From Escherichia phage TrudiRoth: a DNA stretch of 64,000 nt. The DNA lies in sequence record MZ501109. The stretch is one strand, 5' to 3'. The position numbers and the translations under genes are program-made. The first letter of the stretch is position 1. Each line of letters begins with the position of its first letter. Below the pieces are notes generated by a model. The model was not told the origin of the DNA. It did not search any database and was given only the letters and a program-made list of their open reading frames with translations. Positions 41,902-57,910 of this stretch are shown here, in pieces.

Positions 41902-41904
41902 ATT

Positions 41905-42067: not shown

Positions 42068-42084
42068 ATTTGAAGGAGATGCTG

Positions 42085-42378: not shown

Positions 42379-42407
42379 TATTACATAAATTGAACTGGAG
42401 AAGCAAC

Positions 42408-42820: not shown

Positions 42821-42882
42821 ATGGCTTAGGCGGAGGCCTGCAAAACCTCCTTATGTGAGTTCGAATCTCATGCGGTCGTCCA
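42807..42882 (+). tRNA. tRNA-Cys (anticodon GCA)
   Basis: Acceptor cgaccgt/gcggtcg, anticodon arm gaggc-cuGCAaa-acctc (one C-A mismatch), T-arm gtgagTTCGAATctcat, CCA. Confidence 0.6.
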
Positions 42883-42889
42883 AATTTTA

Positions 42890-42972
42890 GGGTCGTTAGC
42901 CAAGCGGTTTGGCGGTGGACTGTTAATCCATGTCGAAAGACAACGTAGGTTCGAATCCTACACGGCCCGCCA
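42890..42972 (+). tRNA. tRNA with GUU anticodon (Asn-type) carrying an atypical 13-nt variable arm
   Basis: Acceptor gggtcgt/acggccc, anticodon arm gtgga-cuGUUaa-tccat, variable gtc-GAAA-gac mini-hairpin, T-arm gtaggTTCGAATcctac, CCA. Confidence 0.5.
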
Positions 42973-43075
42973 TATTCTGTGTAGAGTTAAGTAAACCGGT
43001 AGCCAACCAGCTATCATTGCTGATATCGAATTCAGTCACAGATACCATTTTTCATTAACAACTGAGGAAATAGAT

Positions 43076-43261
43076 ATGACAACTCGTGCAATTGCTCGAC
43101 TAGAAGCTGATCGTGATAATCTGATTAATAATATTAAGGTTCGTGGTAATATTATTAAGGCTCTGAAAGCTGAACTTCTTGAAGAACTTCAAGGTCAAGT
43201 AGAGCGTCGTGAAGCTCTAAAAGAGGTTGAGGAAGCTATCGAAAAACTCAAAACTGAGTAA
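43076..43261 (+). CDS. small coiled-coil protein (61 aa)
   Basis: ORF track. Confidence 0.45.
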   Translation: MTTRAIARLEADRDNLINNIKVRGNIIKALKAELLEELQGQVERREALKEVEEAIEKLKTE

Positions 43262-43264
43262 ATT

Positions 43265-43846
43265 ATGCACGGAATATCCTTACCCATTCCAGGGTTTGAG
43301 GAGTACTTAGTAAGTTTGGATGGGTTAGTATTTAGTATCAAATCAAACAAAATACTAACCCAAATAACCAGTAATTACGGATACTTATCTATACGTCTCC
43401 ATAAAAATGGTCAACAGAGAAATACCGGTGTACATAGGATTTTAGCATGTGCATTTAAGAAATTACCAAGTCTAGACTCTGAACTAGAAGTTGACCATAT
43501 TAACACAGACATTACTTATTGGGGTCTTAATAACTTACAAGTGCTCACAAAAGAGCAGCATCTAGAAAAGACTTTAAAAGATAAAGGATTTAGTAAACTA
43601 AACCATGATAATTGTTGTAAGGATTGTGGTAAAGCTATTTCTTTAAAAGCTGAAAAATGTCAGGAGTGCTCTTCACATAAACCAAAAGATATCTCTATAA
43701 CTAAAGAAATAATCGAGGTTACAGTAAGAGAGCTAGGCTGGTCAGGTGCAGGGAGAAAGTTAAGTTATTCAGATAATGGGTTGCGTAAAAGATACACTTC
43801 TTTAGGAGGCAATCCTAAAGAACTTAAAAAGTTAAAGGTACTATAG
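43265..43846 (+). CDS. HNH homing endonuclease (HNH_3-like); 3' end overlaps tRNA-Asp
   Basis: HRILACAF...EVDHINTDITYWGLNNLQVLTKEQH; Cys-rich CKDCGKAIS...CQEC. Confidence 0.7.
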   Translation: MHGISLPIPGFEEYLVSLDGLVFSIKSNKILTQITSNYGYLSIRLHKNGQQRNTGVHRILACAFKKLPSLDSELEVDHINTDITYWGLNNLQVLTKEQHLEKTLKDKGFSKLNHDNCCKDCGKAISLKAEKCQECSSHKPKDISITKEIIEVTVRELGWSGAGRKLSYSDNGLRKRYTSLGGNPKELKKLKVL

Positions 43847-43911
43847 TCTAACGGTTAGGATACTCCCCTGTCACGGGAGAGGTAGGGTTTCGATTACCCT
43901 TAGTACCGCCA
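43837..43911 (+). tRNA. tRNA-Asp (anticodon GUC)
   Basis: Perfect acceptor ggtacta/tagtacc, anticodon arm ctccc-cuGUCac-gggag, T-arm agggtTTCGATTaccct, CCA. Confidence 0.75.
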
Positions 43912-43917
43912 AATTAT

Positions 43918-43994
43918 ACATCCATAGCTCAATTGGTTAGAGCTACCGCCTCTTAAGCGGTAGGTTCTAGGTTCAAGTCCTAGTGGGTGTACCA
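43918..43994 (+). tRNA. tRNA-Lys (anticodon CUU)
   Basis: Acceptor acatcca/tgggtgt, D-arm gctc-aattggtta-gagc, anticodon arm accgc-cuCUUaa-gcggt, T-arm ctaggTTCAAGTcctag, CCA. Confidence 0.65.
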
Positions 43995-44207
43995 AACATC
44001 AGAGCAGCGTGATGTACTGCAAAGACCCAAAGTCCGGGGTGGACTTCTTGATTCAAAGGAGCAGGCACTAATTATCATTCTAGCGTGGTGGAGAGGGGAC
44101 ACCAGCTTGCCGAGGGTAGAAGCTCGTTCGATTCGAGTGAAAGAATGGTTCTCGTAAATCCGCACAAGTGATAGCAGGTTCAAGTCCTGCCTAGATTGAC
44201 TTATTAT

Positions 44208-44281
44208 GCGTTCGTAGTTAAAAGGTATAATTTTTGGTTGCCAACCAGAAGTTGAGGGTTCGATTCCCTCCGACCGCACCA
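44208..44281 (+). tRNA. tRNA-Gly (anticodon GCC)
   Basis: Acceptor gcgttcg/cgaccgc (one mismatch), anticodon arm tttgg-uuGCCaa-ccaga, T-arm gagggTTCGATTccctc, CCA. Confidence 0.6.
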
Positions 44282-44590
44282 AATCTATCAAACCAAGCCT
44301 GCGCATTCGTGTAACAACTTGTGCGTCTGTAAGGTGATAGTAAACAAGCCACGGAGTTCCGGCCGTTCAACGTGGTAAAATCTTCTGAATAACAGGTCGT
44401 GGATACCTCTTTGGAGGCTCAACGGAAACGCAGGAGTGTAAGTAAACGAAAGTTTACTTATTATGTAGGTTCCGATAGATCGGCGGGTCTATTCTGGCAT
44501 TTAAGAGAAGTCTCGCAAACTTCTTTGTCAGCCGTGGGGTTGGTAGCCTCCAGGTGGCCTACACAATAAGTAAATTTATTAAAAATTAAT

Positions 44591-44619
44591 TTGCTATTCT
44601 GCTTAATTATCTGTATAAT
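44591..44619 (+). promoter_or_regulatory. early-type sigma70 promoter (TTGCTA-17-TATAAT)
   Basis: ttaatTTGCTAttctgcttaattatctgTATAATatattttataaagtgaataga. Confidence 0.6.
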
Positions 44620-44653
44620 ATATTTTATAAAGTGAATAGAAGGAAGTTAACAA

Positions 44654-44893
44654 ATGAAAAAATATTCAGAAGAATTTCTAGAAGATATGGATTTACATTA
44701 CCTGTTAACTTTGGTTTTAGAAGAAAAAATCTATGACCAATTTGATCTAGAAGGTCTTACAAAAGTAGATTGTATTCGTGCCCTTCTCACTGTTGAAACT
44801 CGCTATTTCGAATGTCAACAGTGTGGTGAAGTTAATGAGTGCTCTTGGGAATGTCCAGAGTGTGGATATGACGATCTGCTTGAAACAGAATAA
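44654..44893 (+). CDS. small zinc-ribbon protein (79 aa)
   Basis: CQQCGEVNECSWECPECG. Confidence 0.5.
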   Translation: MKKYSEEFLEDMDLHYLLTLVLEEKIYDQFDLEGLTKVDCIRALLTVETRYFECQQCGEVNECSWECPECGYDDLLETE

Positions 44894-44896
44894 TAT

Positions 44897-44973
44897 CTCC
44901 GATTAGCTCAATTGGTTAGAGCTACCGCCTCTTAAGCGGTAGGTTCTAGGTTCAAGTCCTTCATTGGAGACCA
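44897..44973 (+). tRNA. second tRNA-Lys(CUU)-like gene with weakened T-stem (possibly degenerate)
   Basis: D-arm, anticodon arm and T-loop identical to the 43918 copy; acceptor ctccgat/attggag; T-stem only 3 bp. Confidence 0.45.
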
Positions 44974-44979
44974 AACAAT

Positions 44980-45057
44980 TGCGGGTTAGATCTTTGGTAG
45001 AGATCGCTAGTCTCATAAGCTAGAAAGAGGTAGGTTCGATTCCTGCACCCGCTTCCA
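44980..45057 (+). tRNA. tRNA with CAU anticodon (Met/fMet/Ile2), U1-U72 mismatch
   Basis: Acceptor tgcgggt/acccgct with mismatched first pair, anticodon arm ctagt-cuCAUaa-gctag, T-arm gtaggTTCGATTcctgc, CCA. Confidence 0.55.
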
Positions 45058-45078
45058 ATTTAATAGAAGGATTTCGAA

Positions 45079-45243
45079 ATGAAATTATTTCGTTTAAAAG
45101 TAAGTGATTTACGTTCTAGCAAAGATCGTAAGAAGTATCCACTAGCCCATTACGGTAAAGATGAAAACGAAGTGATGGCGGAATTTGGTATTAATCACCC
45201 TTACTTAAAAGTTTATTCTATTAAGGAAGTCTATGCTAATTAA
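45079..45243 (+). CDS. small ORF (54 aa), below ORF-track threshold
   Basis: Own translation MKLFRLKVSDLRSSKDRKKYPLAHYGKDENEV... Confidence 0.35.
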   Translation: MKLFRLKVSDLRSSKDRKKYPLAHYGKDENEVMAEFGINHPYLKVYSIKEVYAN

Positions 45244-45706
45244 TAAAGTTTTAGCTGCCTTAAACCTTCCTGATAACTTCATTATAGATGATAAGCTCAT
45301 AAGAGCTTATATGAGCAAATATAACGAAATTTCAGGTAAAGAAGGTAAGTTAAAAACTTCAGAGTTTAGATTCTGTTATCGAATGGCAGCCTTAAATCTC
45401 TTAAAATATAAAAGGGAGCATAAAATACCTATAACGGAAGGTTTTGTATATGTAATTGGTAATCCAGCATGGCCAGGCATGTATAAAATAGGTATGACTA
45501 TAGATGTGAATGAGAGGTTAACAAGTTATCAAACTTATTCACCTAATAGAGACTACAAGCTATACCATTTCAGATTTTCGTCGGATAAAAGACGTACAGA
45601 GAAAGAATTACATAATCTTCTTAAAGATTATAGAGTATCTGGAGAATGGTTTGAAGTACCTGTACTAGATGCTTTTAAATTATTAGTAGAAAAATTGGAT
45701 TGCTAG
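45233..45706 (+). CDS. T5orf172-like (GIY-YIG-related) putative homing endonuclease; 3' end overlaps a tRNA
   Basis: GFVYVIGNPAWPGMYKIGMT... and YRVSGEWFEV; recalled from the T5orf172 domain, not searched. Confidence 0.5.
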   Translation: MLINKVLAALNLPDNFIIDDKLIRAYMSKYNEISGKEGKLKTSEFRFCYRMAALNLLKYKREHKIPITEGFVYVIGNPAWPGMYKIGMTIDVNERLTSYQTYSPNRDYKLYHFRFSSDKRRTEKELHNLLKDYRVSGEWFEVPVLDAFKLLVEKLDC

Positions 45707-45774
45707 CTCAACTGGATAAGAGTAGCGGACCTTTAATCCGTCAGTTCTGGGTTCGAATCCCAGGCAATCCACCA
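45697..45774 (+). tRNA. tRNA-Lys (anticodon UUU) with C at position 33
   Basis: Perfect acceptor ggattgc/gcaatcc, D-stem gctc/gagt, anticodon arm gcgga-ccUUUaa-tccgt, T-arm ctgggTTCGAATcccag, CCA. Confidence 0.6.
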
Positions 45775-45778
45775 AATT

Positions 45779-45852
45779 GCTCGGTTAGTTTAATGGGAGA
45801 ACCCCGTCTTTACACGGCGGTTGCGATAGTTCGATTCTATCACCGAGTACCA
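45779..45852 (+). tRNA. tRNA-Val (anticodon UAC)
   Basis: Acceptor gctcggt/accgagt, D-stem gttt/gaac, anticodon arm ccgtc-uuUACac-gacgg, T-arm gatagTTCGATTctatc, CCA. Confidence 0.7.
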
Positions 45853-45870
45853 CTCAACTAAAATAAGGAA

Positions 45871-46113
45871 TTGCAAATGCAATTATCATCTAAAGTTCAA
45901 GGTTTCTTCGCACATGCAACAGCAGAATTTGCTATTAGCAAGGGTTGGGATTTTGAGCAAGAACTTTCTGAGTTCTATAAAGATATAGATATGAATACGC
46001 CATACATGGGACTCTCCACTGGTCAAGAGATCACAGAAGGCGATGTGTTCAAGGCAAGTCAAGGTGAGGTAACACCTAGTTTTGCCGCTTTTTTGGAGTG
46101 GCTTCACAATTAA
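45871..46113 (+). CDS. hypothetical protein (80 aa)
   Basis: ORF track. Confidence 0.5.
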   Translation: MQMQLSSKVQGFFAHATAEFAISKGWDFEQELSEFYKDIDMNTPYMGLSTGQEITEGDVFKASQGEVTPSFAAFLEWLHN

Positions 46114-46222
46114 AGAAGAAGCTCCAGATGATGATGTATTTATGCAAAGCATGCACTCTGGGAGTTCTGATATGTTATTTGTTAAAGATGTACGACATAT
46201 CCAAGAAGTGGTAAAAACGCAG

Positions 46223-46251
46223 TTGCTTAATGCTTAATTTCTTGTTATAAT
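46223..46251 (+). promoter_or_regulatory. early-type sigma70 promoter followed by ~330 nt with no ORF, then tRNAs
   Basis: cagTTGCTTaatgcttaatttcttgtTATAATatttatataaattgatgcg. Confidence 0.6.
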
Positions 46252-46585
46252 ATTTATATAAATTGATGCGAAAATAGCTGCCTAGATACCAGGTGTATGA
46301 CGTCTACACTAGCAGAGCTACCGAAAAAGAGATCCTCAGGATAAACGTCGTAGCAAAATTAGTCTGGTATCCATTAATTTAGTTCACTAAGGTATTAGCT
46401 CGACCTAGGACTGGCTGCCAAAAAGCACGATCCCTACGATTTGGGAGAAGTTCTAGATTAGTCCACTAGATTCAGCGGCAACTGAATAGTGTATCGGGTT
46501 TGTGAAGAGCAGCTATTCTCTACTGGCTAATGTCTGAGGTTAGTACGCACACCGAGCTAATAGCCTTAGTAAACTTAAAGAATTT

Positions 46586-46661
46586 GGGCGAATAGTGTCA
46601 GCGGGAGCACACCAGACTTGCAAGTCTGGTAGGGAGGGTTCGAGTCTCTCTTTGTCCACCA
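46586..46661 (+). tRNA. non-canonical tRNA (GCA-containing anticodon arm; loop of 8 or 6 nt)
   Basis: Acceptor gggcgaa/tttgtcc, D-arm gtgt-cagcggga-gcac, anticodon arm is a perfect 18-nt palindrome ccagacttgcaagtctgg, T-arm gagggTTCGAGTctctc, CCA. Confidence 0.45.
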
Positions 46662-46676
46662 AATTAAAAAGAATGC

Positions 46677-46753
46677 GCGCGATTGACGGAATAGGTATAC
46701 GTGTCAGCCTTAGAAGTTGAATTTTGAGGGTTCGAATCCCTTGTCGCGCACCA
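46677..46753 (+). tRNA. tRNA with UAG anticodon (Leu-type) but short variable arm
   Basis: Perfect acceptor gcgcgat/gtcgcgc, anticodon arm tcagc-cuUAGaa-gttga, T-arm gagggTTCGAATccctt, A73, CCA. Confidence 0.5.
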
Positions 46754-46878
46754 AATTTGATGGTCAGAGTAAATTAAACCTACTATCTCGGTTGAGCTGT
46801 TTTAATGGATTCGAATCCCAGCGAGGCGTAACTGCCTGGCGTGATAGAGGCATCATTCCACTAACATTGGAAAAACTA

Positions 46879-47109
46879 ATGAAACGAAAATTAAAAAAGT
46901 CTTATATAATTAAGATAAATAAGCTACGAAGTAGGGCAAAAGGATGGCCACTTCGAATATTAATTGCGGATAACCATATTAGATACCATGCGGAACAACA
47001 TCATTACAAACAGTGGGAGTCATACTGTCGCTCAAAAGCAGGTCGTTTAGATGGATCTTATGAGCTTCTATTTGGTAAGAAGCCTACTAGATTAGCTTTA
47101 GGTAAGTAA
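46879..47109 (+). CDS. small basic protein (about 76 aa)
   Basis: Track ORF 46717..47109 truncated to internal ATG because its 5' part overlaps tRNA/tRNA-like sequence. Confidence 0.4.
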   Translation: MKRKLKKSYIIKINKLRSRAKGWPLRILIADNHIRYHAEQHHYKQWESYCRSKAGRLDGSYELLFGKKPTRLALGK

Positions 47110-47114
47110 TACTT

Positions 47115-47208
47115 GGAAAAGCAAATAGACTGGCGACTAAACCCGATTGGAAATCGGTTGAGTAATAGCAATATTGCCTTATGGGTTCAACTCCCATCTT
47201 TTCCGCCA
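47115..47208 (+). tRNA. tRNA-Ser (anticodon GGA), long variable arm
   Basis: Perfect acceptor ggaaaag/cttttcc, anticodon arm ccga-uuGGAaa-tcgg, T-arm atgggTTCAACTcccat, CCA. Confidence 0.7.
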
Positions 47209-47223
47209 AATATTGGAGTATAG

Positions 47224-47739
47224 ATGCTAACACAACAAGAATTAAAATCCGTGTTGTTATATAAACCAGATACTGGAGAGTTTTTCTGGAAATATAGATC
47301 TGATTTAGATAGTCAATGGAATAGTAAATATGCTGGAACTAGGGCAGGATTTATTAATGAACTAGGCTATTGGAAGATAACTCTAGGAAATACTAGCTGG
47401 TTAGCACATCGTCTAGCATTCTTATACATGACTGGGGAAATACCAGATCTAATTGACCACAAGGATCAAGATAAGTCCAATACTAAATGGGATAACTTAC
47501 GAATAGCCACTGTATCACAGAATCAGGCTAATGCTAAATTAAGGGTAGATAATACCTCTGGGTACAAAAATGTAACTTGGCATAAGCAAAGAAATAAGTG
47601 GAAAGTAGAAGTACGTAAAGATGGCAAACTCCATTATGGTGGACTTTTTACAGAACTAGATAAAGCTGTAAATAAAGCTAATAATCTTAGACGTGAGTTA
47701 TTCGGGGAATTTGCAGTATATGAAGAGTTTATGGGGTAG
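47224..47739 (+). CDS. HNH-AP2 homing endonuclease (paralog); 3' end overlaps tRNA-Ser
   Basis: HRLAFLYMTGEIPDLIDHKDQDKSNTKWDNLRIATVSQNQAN and AP2-like SGYKNVTWHKQRNKWKVEVRKDGK. Confidence 0.75.
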   Translation: MLTQQELKSVLLYKPDTGEFFWKYRSDLDSQWNSKYAGTRAGFINELGYWKITLGNTSWLAHRLAFLYMTGEIPDLIDHKDQDKSNTKWDNLRIATVSQNQANAKLRVDNTSGYKNVTWHKQRNKWKVEVRKDGKLHYGGLFTELDKAVNKANNLRRELFGEFAVYEEFMG

Positions 47740-47829
47740 GTCAATCCAACGGCTGGCGCTGGACTCCGACTTGAAATCGGTTGATCGTAGTGATACGGTG
47801 TAAGGGTTCGATCCCCTTACCTACCTCCA
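47735..47829 (+). tRNA. tRNA-Ser (anticodon UGA), long variable arm
   Basis: Perfect acceptor ggtaggt/acctacc, D-stem tcca/tgga, anticodon arm ccga-cuUGAaa-tcgg, T-arm aagggTTCGATCccctt, CCA. Confidence 0.7.
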
Positions 47830-47849
47830 ATTAACTATAAGGAATCCTT

Positions 47850-48023
47850 ATGAGCAAAACAGCTACTGTAACAATGAAGGATGGTACAAAATTTAAAGCA
47901 TGTCTTCATGAAACAGATAATGGATGGAAGGCTTATTTGCCACACCTAGATTCCACTGGGTATGGAATGACCCAACGTGAAGCTATTGTTGATGCTTTAA
48001 ATGAGGCTTCCGCTGGTTTATAA
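47850..48023 (+). CDS. small ORF (57 aa), below ORF-track threshold
   Basis: Own translation MSKTATVTMKDGTKFKACLHETDNGWKAY...; RBS taaggaatcc. Confidence 0.35.
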   Translation: MSKTATVTMKDGTKFKACLHETDNGWKAYLPHLDSTGYGMTQREAIVDALNEASAGL

Positions 48024-48029
48024 AAATTC

Positions 48030-48160
48030 TTGGAATATGCCGGAATTGGTAGACGGGACTGCCGAATAGGTTTACTAGGAACATCCACTCCTAGAAATAT
48101 ACCTTAAAAGCGGTTGAGTTAAATGGTATAACTCATGAAGGTTCAAGTCCTTCTATTCCT
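48030..48160 (+). tRNA. tRNA-Leu(UAA)-like gene (type II) with ~40-nt insertion in the anticodon arm; 131 nt, no encoded CCA
   Basis: Acceptor tggaata/tattcct (6 of 7 bp), UG at 8-9, Leu-type D-arm ccg-GAATTGGTAGA-cgg, stem actgc(48057-61)/gcggt(48109-13) separated by 47 nt ending in cuUAAaa, 6-bp variable hairpin, T-arm gaaggTTCAAGTccttc. Confidence 0.4.
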
Positions 48161-48282
48161 TGATACATCAATGGCTCAAAGTGTAACGGTGCTATTTGAT
48201 GCTCTTGGCAAGACTTCCCCGACATGCGTTCGGGAGTAAGCTGCTAAGACTAGAGTAGAAGAGTTTCAACAAGACAACGATA

Positions 48283-48357
48283 GCTCTTAAAGCATTGCTG
48301 GCGATGCAGTTGCCTTGTAAGCATCTGAACCGGGTTCGATTCCTAGTGGGAGCACCA
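48283..48357 (+). tRNA. tRNA-Thr (anticodon UGU)
   Basis: Acceptor gctctta/tgggagc, D-stem gcat/atgc, anticodon arm gttgc-cuUGUaa-gcatc, T-arm ccgggTTCGATTcctag, CCA. Confidence 0.6.
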
Positions 48358-48373
48358 AAATTAAAAAATTCAT

Positions 48374-48402
48374 TTGCCTTCTCTCTTATTTCTTGTTATT
48401 AT
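48374..48402 (+). promoter_or_regulatory. sigma70 promoter (TTGCCT-17-TATTAT)
   Basis: ttcatTTGCCTtctctcttatttcttgtTATTATatttatataaattaatgagaggg. Confidence 0.55.
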
Positions 48403-48432
48403 ATTTATATAAATTAATGAGAGGGAAACCAA

Positions 48433-48726
48433 ATGAAACGTTATCTTTCTGTTATGTTCCAAACTGGTGGTCAACGCTATACTTATGAATTTCCATCTTC
48501 TTGGAAGATCAAAGAAGGTGATCAAGTAGTAGTGTTAACACCGCGTGATGGTTTCAAGGTAGTAACGGTTAAGCAAGTATTTCCAAAAGATCACGAACCA
48601 TCTAAGGCTATTCAGTACAAGATGATTCATGGTCTGGTACGAAAAGTACCTAGAACAGAAGTCGAAGTAGATAAAACTGGGGAAGCTAAATACCAGTATA
48701 CCTCTTACTTAGACGAGTTGTTATAA
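48433..48726 (+). CDS. hypothetical protein (97 aa)
   Basis: ORF track, promoter and RBS. Confidence 0.55.
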   Translation: MKRYLSVMFQTGGQRYTYEFPSSWKIKEGDQVVVLTPRDGFKVVTVKQVFPKDHEPSKAIQYKMIHGLVRKVPRTEVEVDKTGEAKYQYTSYLDELL

Positions 48727-48932
48727 TGGGAATTACTTTCACAGAAAAGATTATGGGCAATGGTGTTATGATCATTACCGCATGGGATGGTAATCAGTGG
48801 TGTAGTGTTTCAGGTATTAAGCCTGAAGAACAAACACTAGAAAATATCTCAAAGATTAAGCGAAGAATGGCAGAACGTGCACGACTTCCAGGTGCGCCTA
48901 GAAATGGTAAACGTTCTGCAATTAAATGTTAA
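48726..48932 (+). CDS. hypothetical protein (68 aa)
   Basis: ORF track. Confidence 0.5.
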   Translation: MGITFTEKIMGNGVMIITAWDGNQWCSVSGIKPEEQTLENISKIKRRMAERARLPGAPRNGKRSAIKC

Positions 48933-48934
48933 TG

Positions 48935-49011
48935 CTTCGGTAGCTTAGCGATCTAAAGCACTCGGCTGATAACCGAGAGATCGGGGGTTTAAATCCCTCC
49001 CGGAGTACCAA
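48935..49011 (+). tRNA. tRNA-Ile (anticodon GAU)
   Basis: Acceptor gcttcgg/ccggagt, D-stem gctt/aagc, anticodon arm ctcgg-cuGAUaa-ccgag, T-arm gggggTTTAAATccctc, CCA. Confidence 0.7.
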
Positions 49012-49104
49012 ATTTAGGAAGTAAGACTATGCGTCCAGGAAAGTTTAAAAAAAAAAAAAAGCTAATTGGTCTAAAGAGTATAAAGAATATTTACTTAGTC
49101 TAGT

Positions 49105-49180
49105 AAAACATAATAGTTAGTTGGCAGAGTGGTTATGCACCTCCTTCATACGGAGCGACTACAGTGGTTCAAATCCACTA
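49105..49180 (+). tRNA. tRNA with CAU anticodon (Met/fMet/Ile2)
   Basis: Perfect acceptor agttagt/actaact, anticodon arm ctcc-uuCAUac-ggag, T-arm agtggTTCAAATccact, CCA. Confidence 0.6.
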
Positions 49181-49228
49181 CTAACTACCATAAAAAAGAG
49201 CTAGAGATAGCTAAATATAGGAGCAAGT

Positions 49229-52304: not shown

Positions 52305-52551
52305 TGCTGTACTAGAATATCTTAGAAAGGATCATGTTAAATTCTGGACTGATTATAGCTACGAGCATAACTCAGATTTAGCTACTGATTTTGCAAATAA
52401 ACGAATAGCTGAGTATACAGATCCTAGAGTTAAGAATGGTGTGATTACTTTACCACTTTGGGATGTGATGGAAAAGTTTGGTAAAGATTTGTGCCCAGGT
52501 TGTGTACCATTGTTTGTTACTATTCTAATTGATGAAAAGGATCTTAAATGA
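52258..52551 (+). CDS. hypothetical protein (97 aa, GTG start)
   Basis: ORF track. Confidence 0.4.
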   Translation: MKELNLNSLVQIPATDAVLEYLRKDHVKFWTDYSYEHNSDLATDFANKRIAEYTDPRVKNGVITLPLWDVMEKFGKDLCPGCVPLFVTILIDEKDLK

Positions 52552-52832
52552 TTATCTCTCCATTTGCTTTGTGGTTTGTTATTGGTGCAGTTGTCGCGAT
52601 TTACAGCCTGATTGATGATCTGTATATCTCTAAAAATAAAGATGTTATTCTTTATGTTATAAACAAATATCGTCCACCAGAATTAGCAGAATTTGACAAT
52701 GAAAAGATGTTCAAATTCATTATGTCAGGTATGCTTATCATGGACACCTTGTTCGGGCCAGTAGCTACTTACTTCTTCTTCCGTAAAACTCGTAAGATGA
52801 AAAAGTTTCGCGCTGAAATGCAGAGCAAGTAA
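52548..52832 (+). CDS. small membrane protein (94 aa)
   Basis: Two hydrophobic helices. Confidence 0.5.
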   Translation: MIISPFALWFVIGAVVAIYSLIDDLYISKNKDVILYVINKYRPPELAEFDNEKMFKFIMSGMLIMDTLFGPVATYFFFRKTRKMKKFRAEMQSK

Positions 52833-52907: not shown

Positions 52908-53297
52908 GTGGTGAGTTGGTCGCTGACCTCAACTTTAACTGGAGATATCATGAGCTTTATTTTATTCAGTGTAGCAGCATGGTTTATTATTGGTTTAGGC
53001 TATGCTATTGCAGTTATTCGTCATCTGGATGAATATTCTGCTGAATGGTTTATTAAGTACCTACGTTTAGACGATCGAGAACACGAGTTCGACAGTGCTG
53101 AGGAAAGACAGGCTGTCCAGTCAATGACTCCCAAAGAATGCTTGCTTTACATGCGTGTAATTGGTTTCTTTGGACTGTTGGTAGTGGGGCCGCTAGGTCT
53201 TACTATTGCTCCCTACAAAGAAGTTGTTGACGACATTAAACTATGGAGAACCGCTGGATCGCTACGTCGTGCTAGAGAATTAAGTAAACAAGAGTGA
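52908..53297 (+). CDS. membrane protein (129 aa)
   Basis: Hydrophobic helices. Confidence 0.5.
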   Translation: MVSWSLTSTLTGDIMSFILFSVAAWFIIGLGYAIAVIRHLDEYSAEWFIKYLRLDDREHEFDSAEERQAVQSMTPKECLLYMRVIGFFGLLVVGPLGLTIAPYKEVVDDIKLWRTAGSLRRARELSKQE

Positions 53298-53382
53298 TGA
53301 TAATCACCTCCTAGCAAGAATAATAATGACAAAGCCCAGCCTGCAATTTTGCGACTGGGCTATTTTTGTAATAAAATTTCAG

Positions 53383-53411
53383 TTGCTCAGATGCCACAAG
53401 TATTGTATAAT
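53383..53411 (+). promoter_or_regulatory. sigma70 promoter (TTGCTC-17-TATAAT)
   Basis: tcagTTGCTCagatgccacaagtattgTATAATatgtttatagattgaggc. Confidence 0.55.
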
Positions 53412-53442
53412 ATGTTTATAGATTGAGGCAAAAGGATAATTT

Positions 53443-54141
53443 ATGAGAATCATTTCAAAGTTCAATGATGTATACGATTTGCAGAATAGTTTATTTGATC
53501 CAGATCGTGTCTGGGAGCGTAAAACTGAAGAGCTGCGAGTAAAAGTAACTGACGATGTAGAAAAGAATATCGTTCATAATCGTCAGGTGTTTCGTGAGGG
53601 TTCCTTATCCTTCCGTGGTGACTTCGAATACTCAGTAAATCCACTGTTTATTGCAGGCGAAGTTTACTGGTTACATGAACTGTCCTGCTGGCATCCAGCA
53701 TTCAGTTTCAAAACGTTCAACATCGATGCTGTGTTCGATAAAATGGAAGAAATGGGATTACATGCCCGTTCTTACTTACTAGATAAGAATCGTGGTGATG
53801 TTCGTGAAACCATGCGAGATATGTTGGTTGAAGCAAAACCTAAAGCAGAACGTATCTTATCTGAACTGCGCGTACCAATTGCATATGTGAAAGGTATTAA
53901 GAAGAACGATAACGATGATGTTCGTAACTTCGTAATTCAGACAAACATTCGTTTCCATCAGTCAGGTATTCCGTGGCAGGAAATTGAAAGTAACTTATAC
54001 CGTTTACACCAAGTTCTCGAACAGTATATCTTCGGTGTACTAGGAACTGGTGAGCCTGATATGATTACCGTATCAGATAAAGACAGGTTAGCAGCACATG
54101 GATTTGATACAAAAACTTCTTTCAGGAATATGGCAAGGTAA
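53443..54141 (+). CDS. hypothetical protein (232 aa)
   Basis: ORF track with promoter. Confidence 0.55.
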   Translation: MRIISKFNDVYDLQNSLFDPDRVWERKTEELRVKVTDDVEKNIVHNRQVFREGSLSFRGDFEYSVNPLFIAGEVYWLHELSCWHPAFSFKTFNIDAVFDKMEEMGLHARSYLLDKNRGDVRETMRDMLVEAKPKAERILSELRVPIAYVKGIKKNDNDDVRNFVIQTNIRFHQSGIPWQEIESNLYRLHQVLEQYIFGVLGTGEPDMITVSDKDRLAAHGFDTKTSFRNMAR

Positions 54142-54547
54142 GTGGTATATCCTGGGAGCTGGTCTTGCGATAGGTATCGGATTCGGTGCTTATCACTTAG
54201 TTAATAAGGTTGAGACTCTAGCAGGTGATCTTGCAGTTGCGACTAAAAAGATCTCCACTCTAGAGACTTCTCTTAATAAAGTGAAAACTGAGAGTGAACT
54301 TCGTGAGACTCGAATGAACCAGTATTTCACAATGAATAATATTTCGCAAGCAGATCTAGACAAAAAGATTAAGCAGTTAGATAAAGCTCTTAGTCGTCAA
54401 GATGTTATCGCTGCAAAGCCTGGATTGGTAACATTAATTGCTAAAAAGCAGAATAAAGAGTTCGAGGAAAGATTAGCGTGTTTAACTGGAAACTTGGAGT
54501 ACTGCTCGCAGCCGCAATCACAATCACAGGCTGTGCAGAAGAAATAA
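54098..54547 (+). CDS. i-spanin-like protein (N-terminal TM helix + coiled coil)
   Basis: TM WYILGAGLAIGIGFGAYHLV then coiled coil; 3' end overlapped by a lipoprotein gene. Confidence 0.4.
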   Translation: MDLIQKLLSGIWQGKWYILGAGLAIGIGFGAYHLVNKVETLAGDLAVATKKISTLETSLNKVKTESELRETRMNQYFTMNNISQADLDKKIKQLDKALSRQDVIAAKPGLVTLIAKKQNKEFEERLACLTGNLEYCSQPQSQSQAVQKK

Positions 54548-54831
54548 AACCGGAGCCATCCCATGAGTTAAAGCAAGCTCATATAGATTGGCCTAAAGGA
54601 CTTCAGCCGTGTAGCTTTGATTTCAAATTCGAAAAGAAATTAGCTACAAATGGTGAAGATGGCGTAGTAGTTGTTGTACCTTACAAAGATTGGAATGCAA
54701 AAGCAAAATGCGAGGAAGCAGTTTACTCTTACATTTCACGACTGACCGGTATGGTTTGCTTCTATCGTCAAGATTTACAAGAAAAACGTTGCTTAGTTTA
54801 TTATCCACCCATTACAAATAGGAAAGATTAA
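54478..54831 (+). CDS. outer-membrane lipoprotein, o-spanin-like (GTG start)
   Basis: Signal peptide with lipobox LAAAITITGC. Confidence 0.45.
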   Translation: MFNWKLGVLLAAAITITGCAEEIKPEPSHELKQAHIDWPKGLQPCSFDFKFEKKLATNGEDGVVVVVPYKDWNAKAKCEEAVYSYISRLTGMVCFYRQDLQEKRCLVYYPPITNRKD

Positions 54832-55583
54832 TGTCAGTATTAGTCGGTTTACACGGTGAGGCTGGTGCGGGAAAAGATACCGTTGCAGAATTAATGATTG
54901 ACTGGTGTAATGACACGTTCCCAACGTGTTTATCCCGTCGTTACAGTTTTGCTAAACCCGTTTACGAACTTGCATCCGTAATCCTCGGGGTAACTCCAGA
55001 GTTTCTGGGAGAGCGCAGGGGGAAAGAGATTGACCAATGGTTTACAGTCACACAATCTCAATTGGAGCGAGCTAGAGACATATGGTTTAAGTATGGTATC
55101 GATAAGTTTGAGGACTTCTCGTACGTTTGGCCTATTTTTGAAGGAAAATACCTTGATCCTCAGCAGTTAATTGGGCAAGCTGATGATGCGCTGTATAGCG
55201 TGTTTATCTCCCCAAGAAAAATGCTACAGCTTGTAGGTACTGAGTTAGGAAGGCAGCTGGTGCATGAACGCATTTGGCTCATAATTCTGGAGCAATCCAT
55301 CGATAAAGACGACCCAGACGTCGCAATCGTTACCGATGTGCGTTTTCCCAATGAGGGAGAGCTAATCATGGAAACCAATACTCTAGATATGGATTCCATA
55401 CTTATTAAGGTTGAATCTGGTATTACTAATAAGTATCGCATCGAGACAGATCATCCGTCTGAAAGCGGTATTCCTGAAAAATACATTTCTCATAAATTTG
55501 AGAATACCTTCAACGGACTTGATGCACTTCGTACCGATGTGTACCACTTCTGTGACTTAGAGCTAGAACCACTAGTTGGATAA
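54831..55583 (+). CDS. dnk: deoxynucleoside monophosphate kinase
   Basis: P-loop GLHGEAGAGKDT resembles T4 gp1 dNMP kinase SGVKRSGKDT; IVTDVRFPNE region. Confidence 0.65.
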   Translation: MSVLVGLHGEAGAGKDTVAELMIDWCNDTFPTCLSRRYSFAKPVYELASVILGVTPEFLGERRGKEIDQWFTVTQSQLERARDIWFKYGIDKFEDFSYVWPIFEGKYLDPQQLIGQADDALYSVFISPRKMLQLVGTELGRQLVHERIWLIILEQSIDKDDPDVAIVTDVRFPNEGELIMETNTLDMDSILIKVESGITNKYRIETDHPSESGIPEKYISHKFENTFNGLDALRTDVYHFCDLELEPLVG

Positions 55584-55595
55584 TTAAGGATCACT

Positions 55596-56195
55596 ATGAC
55601 TAACAAGAAAGAAGAAAAGACTAACCTGTTTCACACTGTTCGCCAATCTAATGAGTATACCTTTTTCTTTGACGAAGAGTTAGGCTCACCGGATGAGTAT
55701 CGTGATCTATCAATGATACTGATGCAGGCTGGTGAAGATGATGAAATTAATCTGATGATTAATGGGCCTGGTGGTTACGTTGATACTGCTGCACAGCTAT
55801 CTAACCTAATAGCTAACTGTCGTGGAACGGTTATTGGGCACCTGCTCGGTCCTAGTGCTTCTGCTTACTGCACAATCTTCCTATCTTGCCACGGTTGGGT
55901 TGTACATCCACATGCTACGCTTATGGGACATACGTTCTCTGGCGGATTCTGCGAGAAAGGTCAAGAAATCAAGAAAGCCTATGAATCCTACAACCAGTTT
56001 GTAGAAGATATGATGCTAGATATTTACTTTCCGTTCTTCTCTGTCGACGAAATCGAGGACATGGTAAAAGAGAATAAGAATATCTATCTCAACAGCAAAG
56101 AAATCAATAAGCGTATTGAAATTTTGGCGAATTATCGTAAAGAGCAGTGTAGTAAAGCTCAAGCCCCACATCCAGAAGAACATGGAGAAGTGTAA
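55596..56195 (+). CDS. ClpP-like serine peptidase-fold protein
   Basis: LMINGPGGYVDTAAQLSNLI...LGPSASAYCTIF resembles ClpP INSPGG...G.AaS. Confidence 0.55.
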   Translation: MTNKKEEKTNLFHTVRQSNEYTFFFDEELGSPDEYRDLSMILMQAGEDDEINLMINGPGGYVDTAAQLSNLIANCRGTVIGHLLGPSASAYCTIFLSCHGWVVHPHATLMGHTFSGGFCEKGQEIKKAYESYNQFVEDMMLDIYFPFFSVDEIEDMVKENKNIYLNSKEINKRIEILANYRKEQCSKAQAPHPEEHGEV

Positions 56196-56204
56196 GTAGT
56201 TTTA

Positions 56205-56237
56205 AGCCAGAGTTTAACGACTCTGGCTTTTCTTTTG
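56205..56237 (+). terminator. Rho-independent terminator
   Basis: 8-bp stem agccagag/ctctggct, then tttcttttg. Confidence 0.65.
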
Positions 56238-56298
56238 CCTAAAATTCTTCTTGACAACGACAAAAAATTGTGCTCCAGAAGTGATCTTAAAAAACACA

Positions 56299-56328
56299 TT
56301 GTAATTTTACTCTAGAATTAGTATAATG
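56299..56328 (+). promoter_or_regulatory. sigma70 promoter (TTGTAA-18-TATAAT) for lysis genes
   Basis: caTTGTAAttttactctagaattagTATAATggtagtg; perfect TTGACA lies ~45 bp upstream. Confidence 0.45.
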
Positions 56329-56351
56329 GTAGTGGTTAGAGGAGGTTACAA

Positions 56352-57008
56352 GTGGAAAAGTTTATACAACTATTAACGATACTGCTACAAGAAGCGAAAG
56401 ATCCAGCTTCACTACTAAAACGTCTGCTAACTATCTTAGTTGCTGTCATTATTTTCTTGTTTGTAAGTAACACTAGCGAGGTGATGTCATTTTTAAAGAC
56501 TTTCTCCACGTCTTCGGTTTTACAGGATGTTCAAACCCAAAGGATAGATAACTTTCCTAATGTAGCACGAGAAAAGAGTATGGTTCTTTTCTCCCAGACT
56601 GGTGCGGATGCCGTTTTTGTAGTAAAGTATAAACCAGATGCTATAAATGATTATTCAAACATTATTGCATGGGAAAGCAATGCGCAATTGGATAGGGCTG
56701 ACTTGGCCGATAAAGCAGTAAATAAGACGTCTGAACTTTATAGACGTCACCTGGAAGGCTTTAACTACGCTGCGGATTTAAGTGTAAAAGTAAATAAATA
56801 TACGGGGTCAAATATACCAGCGTTTAAGAACATTACTTTTAATTACGTCTACACTTGTCCATATTTCAACCTAAATAATATCTATGCTGGATACATAGGT
56901 ATTGCATGGAAGGATAAACCCGTAGATACAGCTGATTCGGAACAATTTAATGAGTACTTAGCAAAGCTCTGTTCCCCACAACGGAGATCATTAGGTAGAT
57001 CTATATGA
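56352..57008 (+). CDS. putative holin (218 aa, one N-terminal TM, GTG start)
   Basis: TM LTILVAVIIFLFV; sits directly upstream of and overlaps the endolysin gene. Confidence 0.5.
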   Translation: MEKFIQLLTILLQEAKDPASLLKRLLTILVAVIIFLFVSNTSEVMSFLKTFSTSSVLQDVQTQRIDNFPNVAREKSMVLFSQTGADAVFVVKYKPDAINDYSNIIAWESNAQLDRADLADKAVNKTSELYRRHLEGFNYAADLSVKVNKYTGSNIPAFKNITFNYVYTCPYFNLNNIYAGYIGIAWKDKPVDTADSEQFNEYLAKLCSPQRRSLGRSI

Positions 57009-57418
57009 GTTTTAAATTTGGTAAAAATAGCGAAAAACAATTAGCAACTGTTAAGCCCGAGCTACAGAAGGTAGCTCGTAGGGCTTTAGAATTATCTCCA
57101 TATGATTTCATAATCGTACAGGGTATTCGTACAGTAGCACAAAGTGCCCAAAACATTGCTAATGGTACTTCATTTTTGAAAGACCCTAGCAAGAGTAAGC
57201 ATGTAACTGGAGACGCTATCGATTTTGCACCATATATTAATGGAAAGATTGATTGGAAAGATCTGGAAGCATTTTGGGCTGTTAAGAAGGCTTTTGAACA
57301 AGCCGGTAAGGAACTTGGTGTCAAACTTCGTTTTGGTGCCGACTGGAATAGTTCTGGTGATTATCATGATGAGATCGATCGTGGTACTTACGACGGTGGT
57401 CACGTAGAATTAGTCTGA
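57005..57418 (+). CDS. endolysin, LAS-type Zn peptidase (L-alanyl-D-glutamate peptidase-like)
   Basis: SKHVTGDAIDF and GADW...DEIDRGTYDGGHVE; 137 aa. Confidence 0.75.
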   Translation: MSFKFGKNSEKQLATVKPELQKVARRALELSPYDFIIVQGIRTVAQSAQNIANGTSFLKDPSKSKHVTGDAIDFAPYINGKIDWKDLEAFWAVKKAFEQAGKELGVKLRFGADWNSSGDYHDEIDRGTYDGGHVELV

Positions 57419-57428
57419 TAATAAATCA

Positions 57429-57452
57429 AGGCGGGGTAATTCCCGCCTTTTA
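57429..57452 (+). terminator. Rho-independent terminator
   Basis: ggcggg-gtaatt-cccgcc then tttta. Confidence 0.65.
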
Positions 57453-57493
57453 AAGCAAAGGGGGCTTTAAAAACTTAATGATAGGAGAAAGCC

Positions 57494-57910
57494 ATGTTTG
57501 CAGAACTATTCACCATGATATTACTAGGAATATGGAAAATAAGCCTAGTAATTTTCATCTTAATGATAATTCTCACTGTTGTCGCACTAGTTACCCAAAA
57601 TGATACATTAAAGAAAGTCGTTCATGGGCTAGAGTATATAATTATGGGCACATTCGGCGTTTGCAAATGCAACTGTCAGAGGAATACGAAATATTGTTGG
57701 CTTTGGATGGAGTTAGAGAACTGCATCACAGTAGCCCTGGCTGTCTCATTCGGTATGATTCTTATGGCCCTAACTCTAGCATTGATACCACTAATGTTAG
57801 CTGGGGGAGTCACGGCTTATTTCACCCTTTTCTCCCCTATACTTATGTATTCAATATATCCAATAACTATGTACTTAGTTAGGAAGAGATTCCCACATCA
57901 AGCACACTAA
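57494..57910 (+). CDS. polytopic membrane protein (138 aa)
   Basis: Four hydrophobic helices. Confidence 0.5.
   Translation: MFAELFTMILLGIWKISLVIFILMIILTVVALVTQNDTLKKVVHGLEYIIMGTFGVCKCNCQRNTKYCWLWMELENCITVALAVSFGMILMALTLALIPLMLAGGVTAYFTLFSPILMYSIYPITMYLVRKRFPHQAH

What the first reader, a model, noticed from the sequence alone, without database searches (positions are those of the whole stretch)
54098..54831. Overlapping spanin-like gene pair 1.5 kb upstream of the holin-endolysin cassette
A protein with one N-terminal TM helix and a coiled-coil body (54098-54547) is overlapped at its 3' end by a GTG-initiated lipoprotein gene (lipobox ITGC, 54478-54831). This is the classic i-spanin/o-spanin layout, but it is separated from the lysis genes (56352-57418) by dNMP kinase and a ClpP-like gene.
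Basis: inference. Interest (0 to 1): 0.4.

Follow-up and report, generated by a model that had tools for sequence, protein, structure and literature searches.

The report
Known T5-family overlapped spanin gene pair

Summary
Both ORFs exist exactly as described: 54098-54547 (149 aa, ATG) and 54478-54831 (117 aa, GTG), sharing 70 nt. The window is a T5-like Salmonella phage (Epseptimavirus, 99.1% identical to phages Seafire and faergetype). The Seafire GenBank record annotates these same coordinates as i-spanin and o-spanin.

- **Family hits:** both proteins hit the PHROG spanin families (phrog_739 at 3e-38, phrog_812 at 7e-30). [quoted passage not shown]
- **T5 orthologues:** T5.045 and T5.044 are named "Rz-like spanin" in RefSeq. 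Kongari et al. 2018 define a "T5 family" of overlapped spanins with a 70-bp overlap.
- **Defining sequence features, all present:** one N-terminal TM helix, a significant heptad repeat, a lipobox (ITGC, Cys19), Ala rather than Asp at +2, and periplasmic cysteines.
- **Selection:** codon-position variation across 11 relatives shows purifying selection in each frame. Diversity is three times lower in the overlap.
- **Gene order:** spanins, dNMP kinase, ClpP-like, T-holin, endolysin is conserved across four Demerecviridae lineages. The 1.5-kb separation from the lysis genes is therefore normal for this family.

No experiment on a T5-family spanin was found; function is inferred from homology to T4 PseT.3/PseT.2. 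Verdict: observation confirmed, interpretation supported, already known, low interest.

The parts
54098..54547 (+). i-spanin gene (149 aa): short cytoplasmic N-terminus, one TM helix, helical or coiled-coil periplasmic domain, C-terminal CX7C, 13-aa low-complexity tail
   Evidence: ORF. phrog_739 'Rz-like spanin' at 3e-38. Same coordinates annotated i-spanin in Seafire. Orthologue T5.045. BLASTP to T4-like PseT.3 at 7e-8. Third-codon-position diversity 0.27 against 0.028 at position 2.
54146..54202 (+). TM helix of the i-spanin (residues 17-35)
   Evidence: Kyte-Doolittle 19-residue maximum 1.55 starting at residue 17. A hydrophobic N-terminal segment is present at the same place in all five Demerecviridae homologues and in T4-like PseT.3. 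No lipobox in this protein.
54209..54292 (+). Best heptad (coiled-coil-like) segment of the i-spanin, residues 38-65
   Evidence: The a/d positions are V38, L41, L45, A48, I52, L55, L59, V62. Score 0.92 against a shuffle mean of 0.705 (sd 0.055), with 0 of 1000 shuffles reaching it. A single-sequence AlphaFold model is helical over residues 2-79, 84-99 and 109-129, but confidence is low (pLDDT 62.7).
54464..54468 (+). Shine-Dalgarno-like GAGGA, 9 nt upstream of the o-spanin start
   Evidence: Read from the sequence. Conserved in all 11 relatives compared. Seafire annotates an RBS here.
54478..54831 (+). o-spanin gene (117 aa precursor, 99-aa mature lipoprotein with four further periplasmic Cys at 45, 78, 94 and 105)
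   Evidence: ORF. phrog_812 'Rz-like spanin' at 7.4e-30. Annotated o-spanin in Seafire. Orthologue T5.044. BLASTP to T4-like PseT.2 at 3e-11, with the C-terminal Cys pair aligned. Third-position diversity 0.239 against 0.048-0.059 at the other positions. The GTG start is ATG in most relatives, and the A/G difference is silent in the i-spanin frame.
54523..54534 (+). Lipobox I-T-G-C; Cys19 (54532-54534) is the predicted lipidated first residue of the mature protein; +2 residue is Ala
   Evidence: Lipobox rule match LLAAAITITGC. Cys at position 19 in all five Demerecviridae homologues. The +2 residue is A or T, never D.
54478..54547 (+). 70-nt doubly coding overlap. It encodes the i-spanin C-terminus (C128...C136 plus the tail SQPQSQSQAVQKK) and, two bases out of frame, the o-spanin signal peptide.
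   Evidence: Diversity pi is 0.04 here against 0.126 and 0.115 in the singly coding parts, with 8 variable columns of 70. The overlap length varies among genera (70, 88, 34, 34 nt), and the genes are separated in T4-like phages.
53443..54141 (+). Upstream gene of unknown function (232 aa), probably the first gene of the same transcription unit; overlaps the i-spanin start by 44 nt
   Evidence: phrog_4243, function unknown. Homologues sit in the same position in Sugarland and T5 (T5.047, with an annotated promoter upstream). A promoter-like site lies at 53349-53377.
54831..56195 (+). dNMP kinase (54831-55583) and ClpP-like protease (55596-56195) lying between the spanins and the holin
   Evidence: phrog_139 and PF21448; phrog_1827 and PF00574. 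Same order in T5, Sugarland, DU_PP_V and a Proteus phage.
56204..56327 (+). Terminator-like hairpin (56204-56229) and promoter-like site (56299-56327) that separate the spanin-containing unit from holin and endolysin
   Evidence: Consensus scan: 11-bp stem followed by a T run, and TTGTAA-17-TATAAT at 10 of 12. T5 and Sugarland records annotate a terminator at the same position. The consensus matches themselves are not proof.
56352..57418 (+). T-type holin (56352-57008) and M15 L-alanyl-D-glutamate peptidase endolysin (57005-57418), the partners of the spanin in lysis
   Evidence: PF11031 at 8.3e-111 and phrog_860; phrog_465 and PF13539.

Best explanation
This is the two-component spanin of a T5-like (Epseptimavirus) phage, in the 'overlapped' gene architecture. 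It is orthologous to T5.045/T5.044 and remotely homologous to T4 PseT.3/PseT.2.

Proposed mechanism (inferred from the lambda and T4 systems, not shown here):
1. The 149-aa protein inserts in the inner membrane with one N-terminal TM helix. Its helical, partly coiled-coil domain extends into the periplasm.
2. The 117-aa precursor is exported, lipidated on Cys19 and cleaved by signal peptidase II. Because residue +2 is Ala rather than Asp, the Lol pathway sends it to the inner leaflet of the outer membrane.
3. The C-terminal parts of the two proteins bind. The complexes span the periplasm, threaded through the peptidoglycan mesh, and are stabilised by disulfide bonds (2 Cys in the i-spanin, 4 periplasmic Cys in the o-spanin).
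4. The T-type holin releases the M15 endolysin and the wall is destroyed. The spanin complexes are then free to collapse and fuse or disrupt the inner and outer membranes, which completes lysis.

The pair is probably transcribed with the upstream 232-aa gene, dNMP kinase and the ClpP-like gene, as a unit separate from holin and endolysin.
For: - **ORFs and overlap:**
- **Annotation:** identical coordinates are annotated i-spanin/o-spanin in Seafire, which is 99.1% identical.
- **Family:** phrog_739 at 3e-38 and phrog_812 at 7.4e-30. [quoted passage not shown] Direct BLASTP to them gives 7e-8 and 3e-11.
- **Orthologues:** T5.045/T5.044 are 'Rz-like spanin', and the record notes state similarity to T4 PseT.2 and related proteins. 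The T5 spanin family with a 70-bp overlap is described in PMC6139136, which also reports that T4 pseT.3/pseT.2 complement a lambda Rz/Rz1 defect.
- **Conserved features across four Demerecviridae lineages:** the TM helix, Cys19 in a lipobox, a non-Asp +2 residue, four periplasmic Cys in the o-spanin (the last two aligned with the Cys pair of T4-like PseT.2, the family in which PMC6139136 found both PseT.2 cysteines essential in T4), and CX7C in the i-spanin.
- **Coiled coil:** heptad repeat with 0 of 1000 shuffles reaching the observed score.
- **Selection:** purifying selection in each frame and three-fold lower diversity in the overlap.
- **Synteny:** conserved gene order with T-holin and endolysin.
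Against: - No experiment on any T5-family spanin was found in the searched library. Function rests on homology and sequence features.
- Pfam and NCBIfam have no model that matches either protein, and there is no solved structure of a relative.
- The genes are not in the same predicted transcription unit as holin and endolysin.
- Lipidation, outer-membrane sorting, complex formation and membrane fusion cannot be tested with these tools.
- The AlphaFold model of the i-spanin is low-confidence (pLDDT 62.7).
Confidence: 0.92

Rival explanations
1. The lipoprotein is a superinfection-exclusion or receptor-blocking lipoprotein (like T5 Llp or the Cor proteins). The overlapping TM protein would be an unrelated membrane protein, and the pair would have nothing to do with lysis.
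For: T5-like phages are known (from my own background knowledge) to encode a small receptor-blocking lipoprotein, Llp. The pair lies in a transcription unit of early-type genes (dNMP kinase, ClpP-like) rather than with holin and endolysin.
Against: The protein's only PHROG match is the spanin family phrog_812, shared with T4-like PseT.2. It aligns with PseT.2 through the C-terminal Cys pair. It is always paired and overlapped with a PseT.3-like TM and coiled-coil protein across four Demerecviridae lineages. T4 PseT.3/PseT.2 complement a lambda spanin defect (PMC6139136).
Confidence: 0.03
2. The pair is a genuine PseT.3/PseT.2 homologue, but in T5-like phages it has a different or additional envelope role, for example bridging the two membranes earlier in infection. 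Outer-membrane disruption at lysis would not depend on it.
For: It is predicted to be co-transcribed with nucleotide-metabolism genes, apart from holin and endolysin. No functional test of a T5-family spanin was found. Its cysteine content (2 + 4) differs from T4, which has 0 + 2.
Against: No other spanin-like gene was noticed in the lysis region, and this is the only ORF in the window with a convincing lipoprotein signal. In T4 the homologous genes are likewise not located near t and e, yet they act as spanins. The tools give no positive evidence for an early role.
Confidence: 0.04
3. The GTG-initiated second ORF is a chance alternative-frame ORF and is not expressed; only the 149-aa protein is real.
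For: It has a GTG start, many GenBank records of close relatives leave it unannotated, and it has no Pfam family.
Against: Downstream of the overlap, variation among 11 relatives is concentrated at the third codon position of this frame (54 of 81 variable sites, pi 0.239 against 0.048-0.059). The start is ATG in most relatives, with a conserved GAGGA 9 nt upstream. The ORF, the lipobox Cys19 and four other Cys are conserved down to 26-46% identity in other genera.
Confidence: 0.01

Closest known systems
T5 spanin family (T5.045 i-spanin / T5.044 o-spanin; members T5, EPS7, Stitch, SPC35, AKFV33, FFH1, DT57C, My1; Kongari et al. 2018)
   Same: Orthologous: about 88% nucleotide identity to T5 and the same 70-nt overlap. 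The o-spanin signal peptide and lipobox (ITGC) differ from T5's by one residue. The cysteines are the same, as are the neighbours dnk, ClpP-like, T-holin and endolysin.
   Different: Only minor allelic differences. The start is GTG instead of ATG (shared with Seafire and ECOP18). The first ~15 cytoplasmic residues of the i-spanin differ from T5, where an HNH homing endonuclease gene (hegF) sits immediately upstream.
T4 PseT.3 / PseT.2 two-component spanin
   Same: Both subunits belong to the same PHROG families (phrog_739, phrog_812). Shared motifs are AAKPGL/AKKPQL in the i-spanin and C-[FY]-Y-R-x-D-L-x-E-x-[KR]-C at the o-spanin C-terminus. In both, the spanin genes are not adjacent to the holin and endolysin genes, and in both the holin is T-type.
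   Different: The T4-type genes are separated rather than overlapped. PseT.3 has no periplasmic Cys and PseT.2 has two; here the i-spanin has CX7C and the o-spanin has four. The proteins here are longer (149 and 117 aa, against 117 and 83 aa as reported). Identity is only about 27-32%.
Lambda Rz / Rz1
   Same: Same functional class and topology: a type II inner-membrane protein with a coiled-coil periplasmic domain, plus an outer-membrane lipoprotein encoded in another frame of shared DNA.
   Different: No detectable sequence homology; no Pfam Rz or Rz1 model matched. Rz1 is fully embedded in Rz, small, proline-rich and unstructured. The o-spanin here extends beyond the i-spanin gene, has a 99-aa mature form, only 7% Pro and four Cys. 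Lambda's spanin genes are the last genes of the lysis cassette.
P2 LysB / LysC
   Same: Same 'overlapped' gene architecture: the o-spanin starts inside the 3' end of the i-spanin gene and runs past it (architecture classes described in PMC6139136).
   Different: A different sequence family in the Kongari classification. P2's genes lie in the lysis cassette.

Membership tests
Two-component spanin (functional class) | i-spanin: one N-terminal TM helix with the bulk of the protein periplasmic (type II topology) | tested here: met
   A single hydrophobic segment at residues 17-35 (KD 1.55), with no second one, conserved in all homologues aligned. The topology itself is inferred.
Two-component spanin (functional class) | i-spanin periplasmic domain is alpha-helical with coiled-coil propensity | tested here: met
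   Heptad repeat at residues 38-65 with 8 of 8 a/d positions hydrophobic; 0 of 1000 shuffles reach the score. A low-confidence AlphaFold model is helical over 2-79, 84-99 and 109-129.
Two-component spanin (functional class) | o-spanin: signal peptidase II signal with a lipobox Cys, and no inner-membrane retention residue (Asp) at +2 | tested here: met
   MFNWK-LGVLLAAAIT-ITG-C19, with +2 = Ala. Cys19 and a non-Asp +2 residue are found in five Demerecviridae homologues. Actual lipidation and sorting cannot be tested here.
Two-component spanin (functional class) | The two genes are adjacent in an embedded, overlapped or separated arrangement, i-spanin first | tested here: met
   70-nt overlap with the o-spanin starting two bases out of frame. 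Both frames are under purifying selection.
Two-component spanin (functional class) | Periplasmic cysteines available for intermolecular disulfide bonds | tested here: met
   i-spanin C128 and C136; o-spanin C45, C78, C94 and C105 besides the lipidated C19. All are conserved across Demerecviridae. The bonds themselves were not tested.
Two-component spanin (functional class) | Required for outer-membrane disruption (spherical-cell phenotype of mutants; complements lambda Rz/Rz1 null) | not testable with these tools
   No experiment on T5-family spanins was found. The remote homologues T4 PseT.3/PseT.2 complement lambda (PMC6139136).
T5 spanin family (Kongari et al. 2018) | Sequence homology of both subunits to T5.045 and T5.044, with a 70-bp overlap | tested here: met
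   blastn to T5 gives 88.1% over 94% of the pair. The protein alignments are nearly identical outside the i-spanin N-terminus. The overlap is 70 nt in both. The family is described.
T4 PseT.3/PseT.2 family (PHROG 739 / 812) | Significant profile match of both subunits to the families that contain PseT.3 and PseT.2 | tested here: met
   Window proteins score 3e-38 and 7.4e-30. PEi26 PseT.3 and PseT.2 score 1.1e-35 and 4.6e-37 against the same PHROGs. Pairwise BLASTP gives 7e-8 and 3e-11.
T4 PseT.3/PseT.2 family (PHROG 739 / 812) | C-terminal Cys pair of the o-spanin (both essential in T4 PseT.2) | tested here: met
   C94 and C105 align with the Cys pair of T4-like PseT.2 (CFYRQDLQEKRC against CYYRKDLKEPKC).
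Lambda Rz / Rz1 (Pfam Rz and Rz1 families) | Match to the Pfam Rz or Rz1 models | tested here: not met
   Neither protein has a Pfam hit above noise at E <= 0.1. It works like Rz/Rz1 but is not a sequence member of that family.
Receptor-blocking or superinfection-exclusion lipoproteins (Llp/Cor type) | Sequence similarity to such a family | tested here: not met
   The only PHROG match at E <= 0.01 is the spanin family phrog_812. No direct comparison with an Llp sequence was made.

The most novel reading that the evidence does not exclude
The T5-family spanin might use a disulfide arrangement unlike either studied model. Lambda has homotypic Rz-Rz and Rz1-Rz1 links, and T4 has two PseT.2-PseT.2 links and none in PseT.3. 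Here a conserved CX7C sits at the i-spanin C-terminus, exactly where it should contact the o-spanin, and the o-spanin has four periplasmic Cys. This could allow heterotypic i-o disulfides, or an intramolecular clasp.

The 13-residue i-spanin tail beyond C136 would then be a functionless by-product of overprinting the o-spanin signal peptide. In favour of that, the tail is absent in two other genera (DU_PP_V and a Proteus phage) and replaced in phages where a homing endonuclease gene splits the pair.
Probability: 0.25. Interest if true: 0.25.

Novelty: already known. Interest (0 to 1): 0.06.

Why it matters
It matters little beyond correct annotation. The pair completes the lysis gene set of this phage: T-type holin, M15 endolysin, i-spanin and o-spanin.

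The o-spanin gene is missing, or the i-spanin is mislabelled (for example as 'putative terminase'), in many public records of close relatives. A clean call is therefore useful for annotation transfer.

The only open biology is that the function of the T5-family spanin, and the role of its unusually many cysteines, have apparently not been tested directly.

Tried and rejected
- **Pfam and NCBIfam** scans of both proteins gave nothing above noise.
- **PDB sequence search** found no relatives at E < 0.05.
- **Single-sequence AlphaFold** of the i-spanin gave a low-confidence, all-helical model (pLDDT 62.7). I use it only as weak support. I made no fold search with it and did not model the o-spanin, because a model without an alignment would be uninformative.
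- **Literature searches** for experiments on T5 spanins ('T5 spanin', 'T5.044', 'T5.045' and similar) returned only the Kongari survey and unrelated papers.
- **Large searches not run:** I did not use the large protein-database searches or metagenome scans. The identity of the pair was settled by the annotated phage collection, PHROGs and the literature.
- **Considered and rejected:** a chance ORF, an Llp/Cor-type exclusion lipoprotein, and the idea that separation from holin and endolysin is anomalous.
Full report
**1. Observation**

The ORF list contains 54098..54547 (+, 149 aa, ATG) and 54478..54831 (+, 117 aa, GTG). They share 70 nt, and the second ORF starts 380 nt into the first, two bases out of frame. 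The sequence shows GAGGA at 54464-54468, 9 nt before the GTG. The GTG shares bases with the Ala127 and Cys128 codons of the first gene.

The first protein has a single hydrophobic segment at residues 17-35 (Kyte-Doolittle 1.55). It also has a heptad repeat at residues 38-65 in which all eight a/d positions are hydrophobic. None of 1000 shuffles of the periplasmic part reached that score. A single-sequence AlphaFold model is helical over residues 2-79, 84-99 and 109-129, but its confidence is low (pLDDT 62.7).

The second protein starts MFNWKLGVLLAAAITITGC. That is a basic residue, a hydrophobic core and the lipobox ITGC with Cys19, followed by Ala at +2. A six-frame scan found no other ORF in the 64-kb window with a convincing lipoprotein signal.

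- dNMP kinase, 54831-55583
- ClpP-like protein, 55596-56195
- T-type holin, 56352-57008 (PF11031, 8e-111)
- M15 endolysin, 57005-57418

**2. What the window is**

Megablast of 53400-57500 finds 458 phage records, all T5-like. The best are Salmonella phages faergetype and Seafire at 99.1% identity (genus Epseptimavirus, family Demerecviridae).

The Seafire record was annotated by the Center for Phage Technology (locus tags CPT_Seafire). It annotates CPT_Seafire_053 as i-spanin and CPT_Seafire_052 as o-spanin. When mapped onto the window these are exactly 54098-54547 and 54478-54831, each with an RBS.

**3. Homology**

- Both proteins hit PHROG families labelled 'Rz-like spanin': phrog_739 at 3e-38 and phrog_812 at 7.4e-30.
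- PseT.3 and PseT.2 of a T4-like phage (Edwardsiella phage PEi26) hit the same two PHROGs at 1.1e-35 and 4.6e-37.
- Direct BLASTP between the window proteins and the PEi26 proteins gives 7e-8 and 3e-11.
- The T5 RefSeq record names the orthologues T5.045 and T5.044 'Rz-like spanin'. Its notes state similarity to T4 PseT.2 and related proteins.
- Pfam, NCBIfam and the PDB sequence set contain nothing related.

**4. Literature**

Kongari et al. 2018 (PMC6139136) list a 'T5 family' among both the i-spanin and o-spanin families. Its members are T5, EPS7, Stitch, SPC35, AKFV33, FFH1, DT57C, My1, phiR201 and Shivani.

The paper states that the T5 spanins overlap by 70 bp. It also describes Shivani and phiR201, in which a GIY-YIG homing endonuclease gene separates the pair. 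The same paper shows that T4 pseT.3/pseT.2 complement a lambda Rz/Rz1 defect, and that both PseT.2 cysteines are essential.

I found no experiment on a T5-family spanin itself.

**5. Comparative anatomy**

Homologous pairs sit in the same place in four lineages: T5 (Tequintavirus), Klebsiella phage Sugarland (Sugarlandvirus), Pectobacterium phage DU_PP_V (Mccorquodalevirinae) and Proteus phage VTCCBPA139 (Novosibvirus). In each, dNMP kinase, the ClpP-like gene, T-holin and an endolysin or peptidoglycan hydrolase follow. The 1.5-kb separation from the holin is therefore the family norm.

The alignments show these conserved features:
- the N-terminal hydrophobic helix
- an AAKPGL-type motif, shared with PseT.3
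- CX7C at the i-spanin C-terminus, present in all Demerecviridae homologues and absent in the T4-like protein
- the lipobox Cys at position 19, with +2 being A or T
- four further Cys in the o-spanin; the last two lie in a C-[FY]-Y-R-x-D-L-x-E-x-[KR]-C motif shared with PseT.2

The overlap length varies (70, 88, 34, 34 nt). The i-spanins of DU_PP_V and the Proteus phage stop one residue after the second Cys. The 13-residue tail SQPQSQSQAVQKK in the window is therefore probably a by-product of reading through the o-spanin signal-peptide DNA (inference).

**6. Selection in each frame**

I compared the 734-nt region across 11 Markadamsvirinae phages at 84-99% identity (loci; analysis).

| Region | Variable sites | Sites at third position of the coding frame | pi at third position | pi at other positions |
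|---|---|---|---|---|
| i-spanin only | 113 | 76 (i frame) | 0.27 | 0.028 at position 2 |
| o-spanin only | 81 | 54 (o frame) | 0.239 | 0.048-0.059 |
| 70-nt overlap | 8 | n/a | overall pi 0.04 | n/a |

Overall diversity in the two singly coding regions is about 0.12, three times that of the overlap.

The o-spanin start is ATG in most relatives, and GTG in the window, Seafire and ECOP18. The A/G change is silent in the i-spanin frame (GCA/GCG, Ala127). The upstream GAGGA is invariant. Both genes are therefore real and constrained.

**7. Transcription context (inferred)**

A terminator-like hairpin lies at 56204-56229, just after the ClpP-like gene. A promoter-like site (TTGTAA-17-TATAAT) lies at 56299-56327, before the holin. 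T5 and Sugarland records annotate a terminator at the same position, and T5 has a promoter upstream of T5.047, the homologue of the 232-aa ORF at 53443-54141.

The spanins therefore probably belong to a unit of five genes: the 232-aa ORF, i-spanin, o-spanin, dnk and the ClpP-like gene. Holin and endolysin would form a separate unit. The consensus scan found no more sites than shuffled sequence would give, so this inference rests mainly on the concordant annotations.

**8. Mechanism**

The mechanism is inferred from established work on lambda Rz/Rz1 and T4 PseT.3/PseT.2. The i-spanin is anchored in the inner membrane and the o-spanin, as a lipoprotein, in the outer membrane. Their periplasmic C-terminal regions bind, forming a disulfide-stabilised bridge across the periplasm.

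The bridge is held in check by the peptidoglycan mesh. Once the holin releases the endolysin and the wall is degraded, the complexes disrupt the outer membrane by fusing the two membranes.

What is shown here is the sequence features, the homology, the conservation and the selection. Localisation, complex formation, disulfide bonding and the lysis role are inferred.

**9. Rivals**

- A chance ORF is excluded by the codon-position pattern.
- An Llp/Cor-type exclusion lipoprotein is disfavoured by the PseT.2 homology and by the obligatory pairing with a PseT.3-like partner.
- A non-lysis envelope role cannot be formally excluded without experiments, but nothing supports it.

**10. Verdict**

The pair belongs to the 'overlapped' architecture class and to the known T5 spanin family, which is homologous to the T4 family. 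It is a functional analogue of lambda Rz/Rz1, not a sequence relative.

It is already known and annotated, so interest is low. The only modest open points are the untested function in T5-like phages and the unusual cysteine complement.

Noticed in passing
window 55010-55019 (inside the dNMP kinase gene): The sequence AGAGCGCAGG matches T5 at the position where T5 records annotate the major single-strand interruption (nick) at 18.5% of the genome, with consensus 5'-N-Pu-pGCGC-N-3'. This phage probably carries the same nick site about 180 nt downstream of the o-spanin stop.
   Followed up: partly
window 36283-49190: Cluster of 23 tRNA genes, all on the + strand, as is typical of T5-like phages. 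One gene (46586-46661) is reported with a four-base anticodon 'tgca' and no amino-acid assignment.
   Followed up: no
window 53443-54141: A 232-aa protein of unknown function (phrog_4243; no Pfam or NCBIfam match) overlaps the i-spanin start by 44 nt. It occupies the same position upstream of the spanins in Sugarland and T5 (T5.047). In T5 and Shigella phage SSP1 an HNH homing endonuclease gene (hegF in T5) lies immediately upstream of the i-spanin, and in T5 the first ~15 residues of the i-spanin differ.
   Followed up: partly
L016 (Salmonella phage NR01) 582-1280; also Shivani and phiR2-01: A 232-aa endonuclease gene is inserted between the i- and o-spanin genes, turning the overlapped pair into a separated one. 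It has T5orf172/MUG113 plus CapR and treble-clef zinc-finger domains. The i-spanin keeps both Cys and gains a new tail (RDERKNK). The o-spanin keeps its signal peptide with a new N-terminus (MHKIK...). Kongari et al. 2018 already described this for Shivani and phiR201.
   Followed up: partly
window 52548-52832, 52908-53297 and 57494-57910: Small predicted membrane proteins of unknown function flank the lysis region. They are a 94-aa DUF7176 protein, a 129-aa ORF (Seafire annotates a shorter version as a membrane protein), and a 138-aa protein (phrog_5944) just after the endolysin. Whether any of them regulates the T-type holin, in the manner of an antiholin, is unknown.
   Followed up: no
Public records of close relatives: Annotation of this pair is inconsistent. 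The o-spanin gene is not annotated at all in faergetype, oldekolle and S116. The i-spanin homologue is labelled 'putative terminase' in ECOP18, and the same label appears under the match in SE24, KPP2018 and ZBSTP12. Many records call both genes 'hypothetical protein'.
   Followed up: partly
window 56352-57418: The holin is a T4 T-type holin (PF11031, 8e-111), and both spanin subunits are T4 PseT.3/PseT.2 relatives. The endolysin, however, is an M15 L-alanyl-D-glutamate peptidase rather than a T4 E-type lysozyme. The Proteus phage relative carries a differently sized gene annotated only as a putative peptidoglycan hydrolase in the same slot, which may indicate a different enzyme.
   Followed up: no
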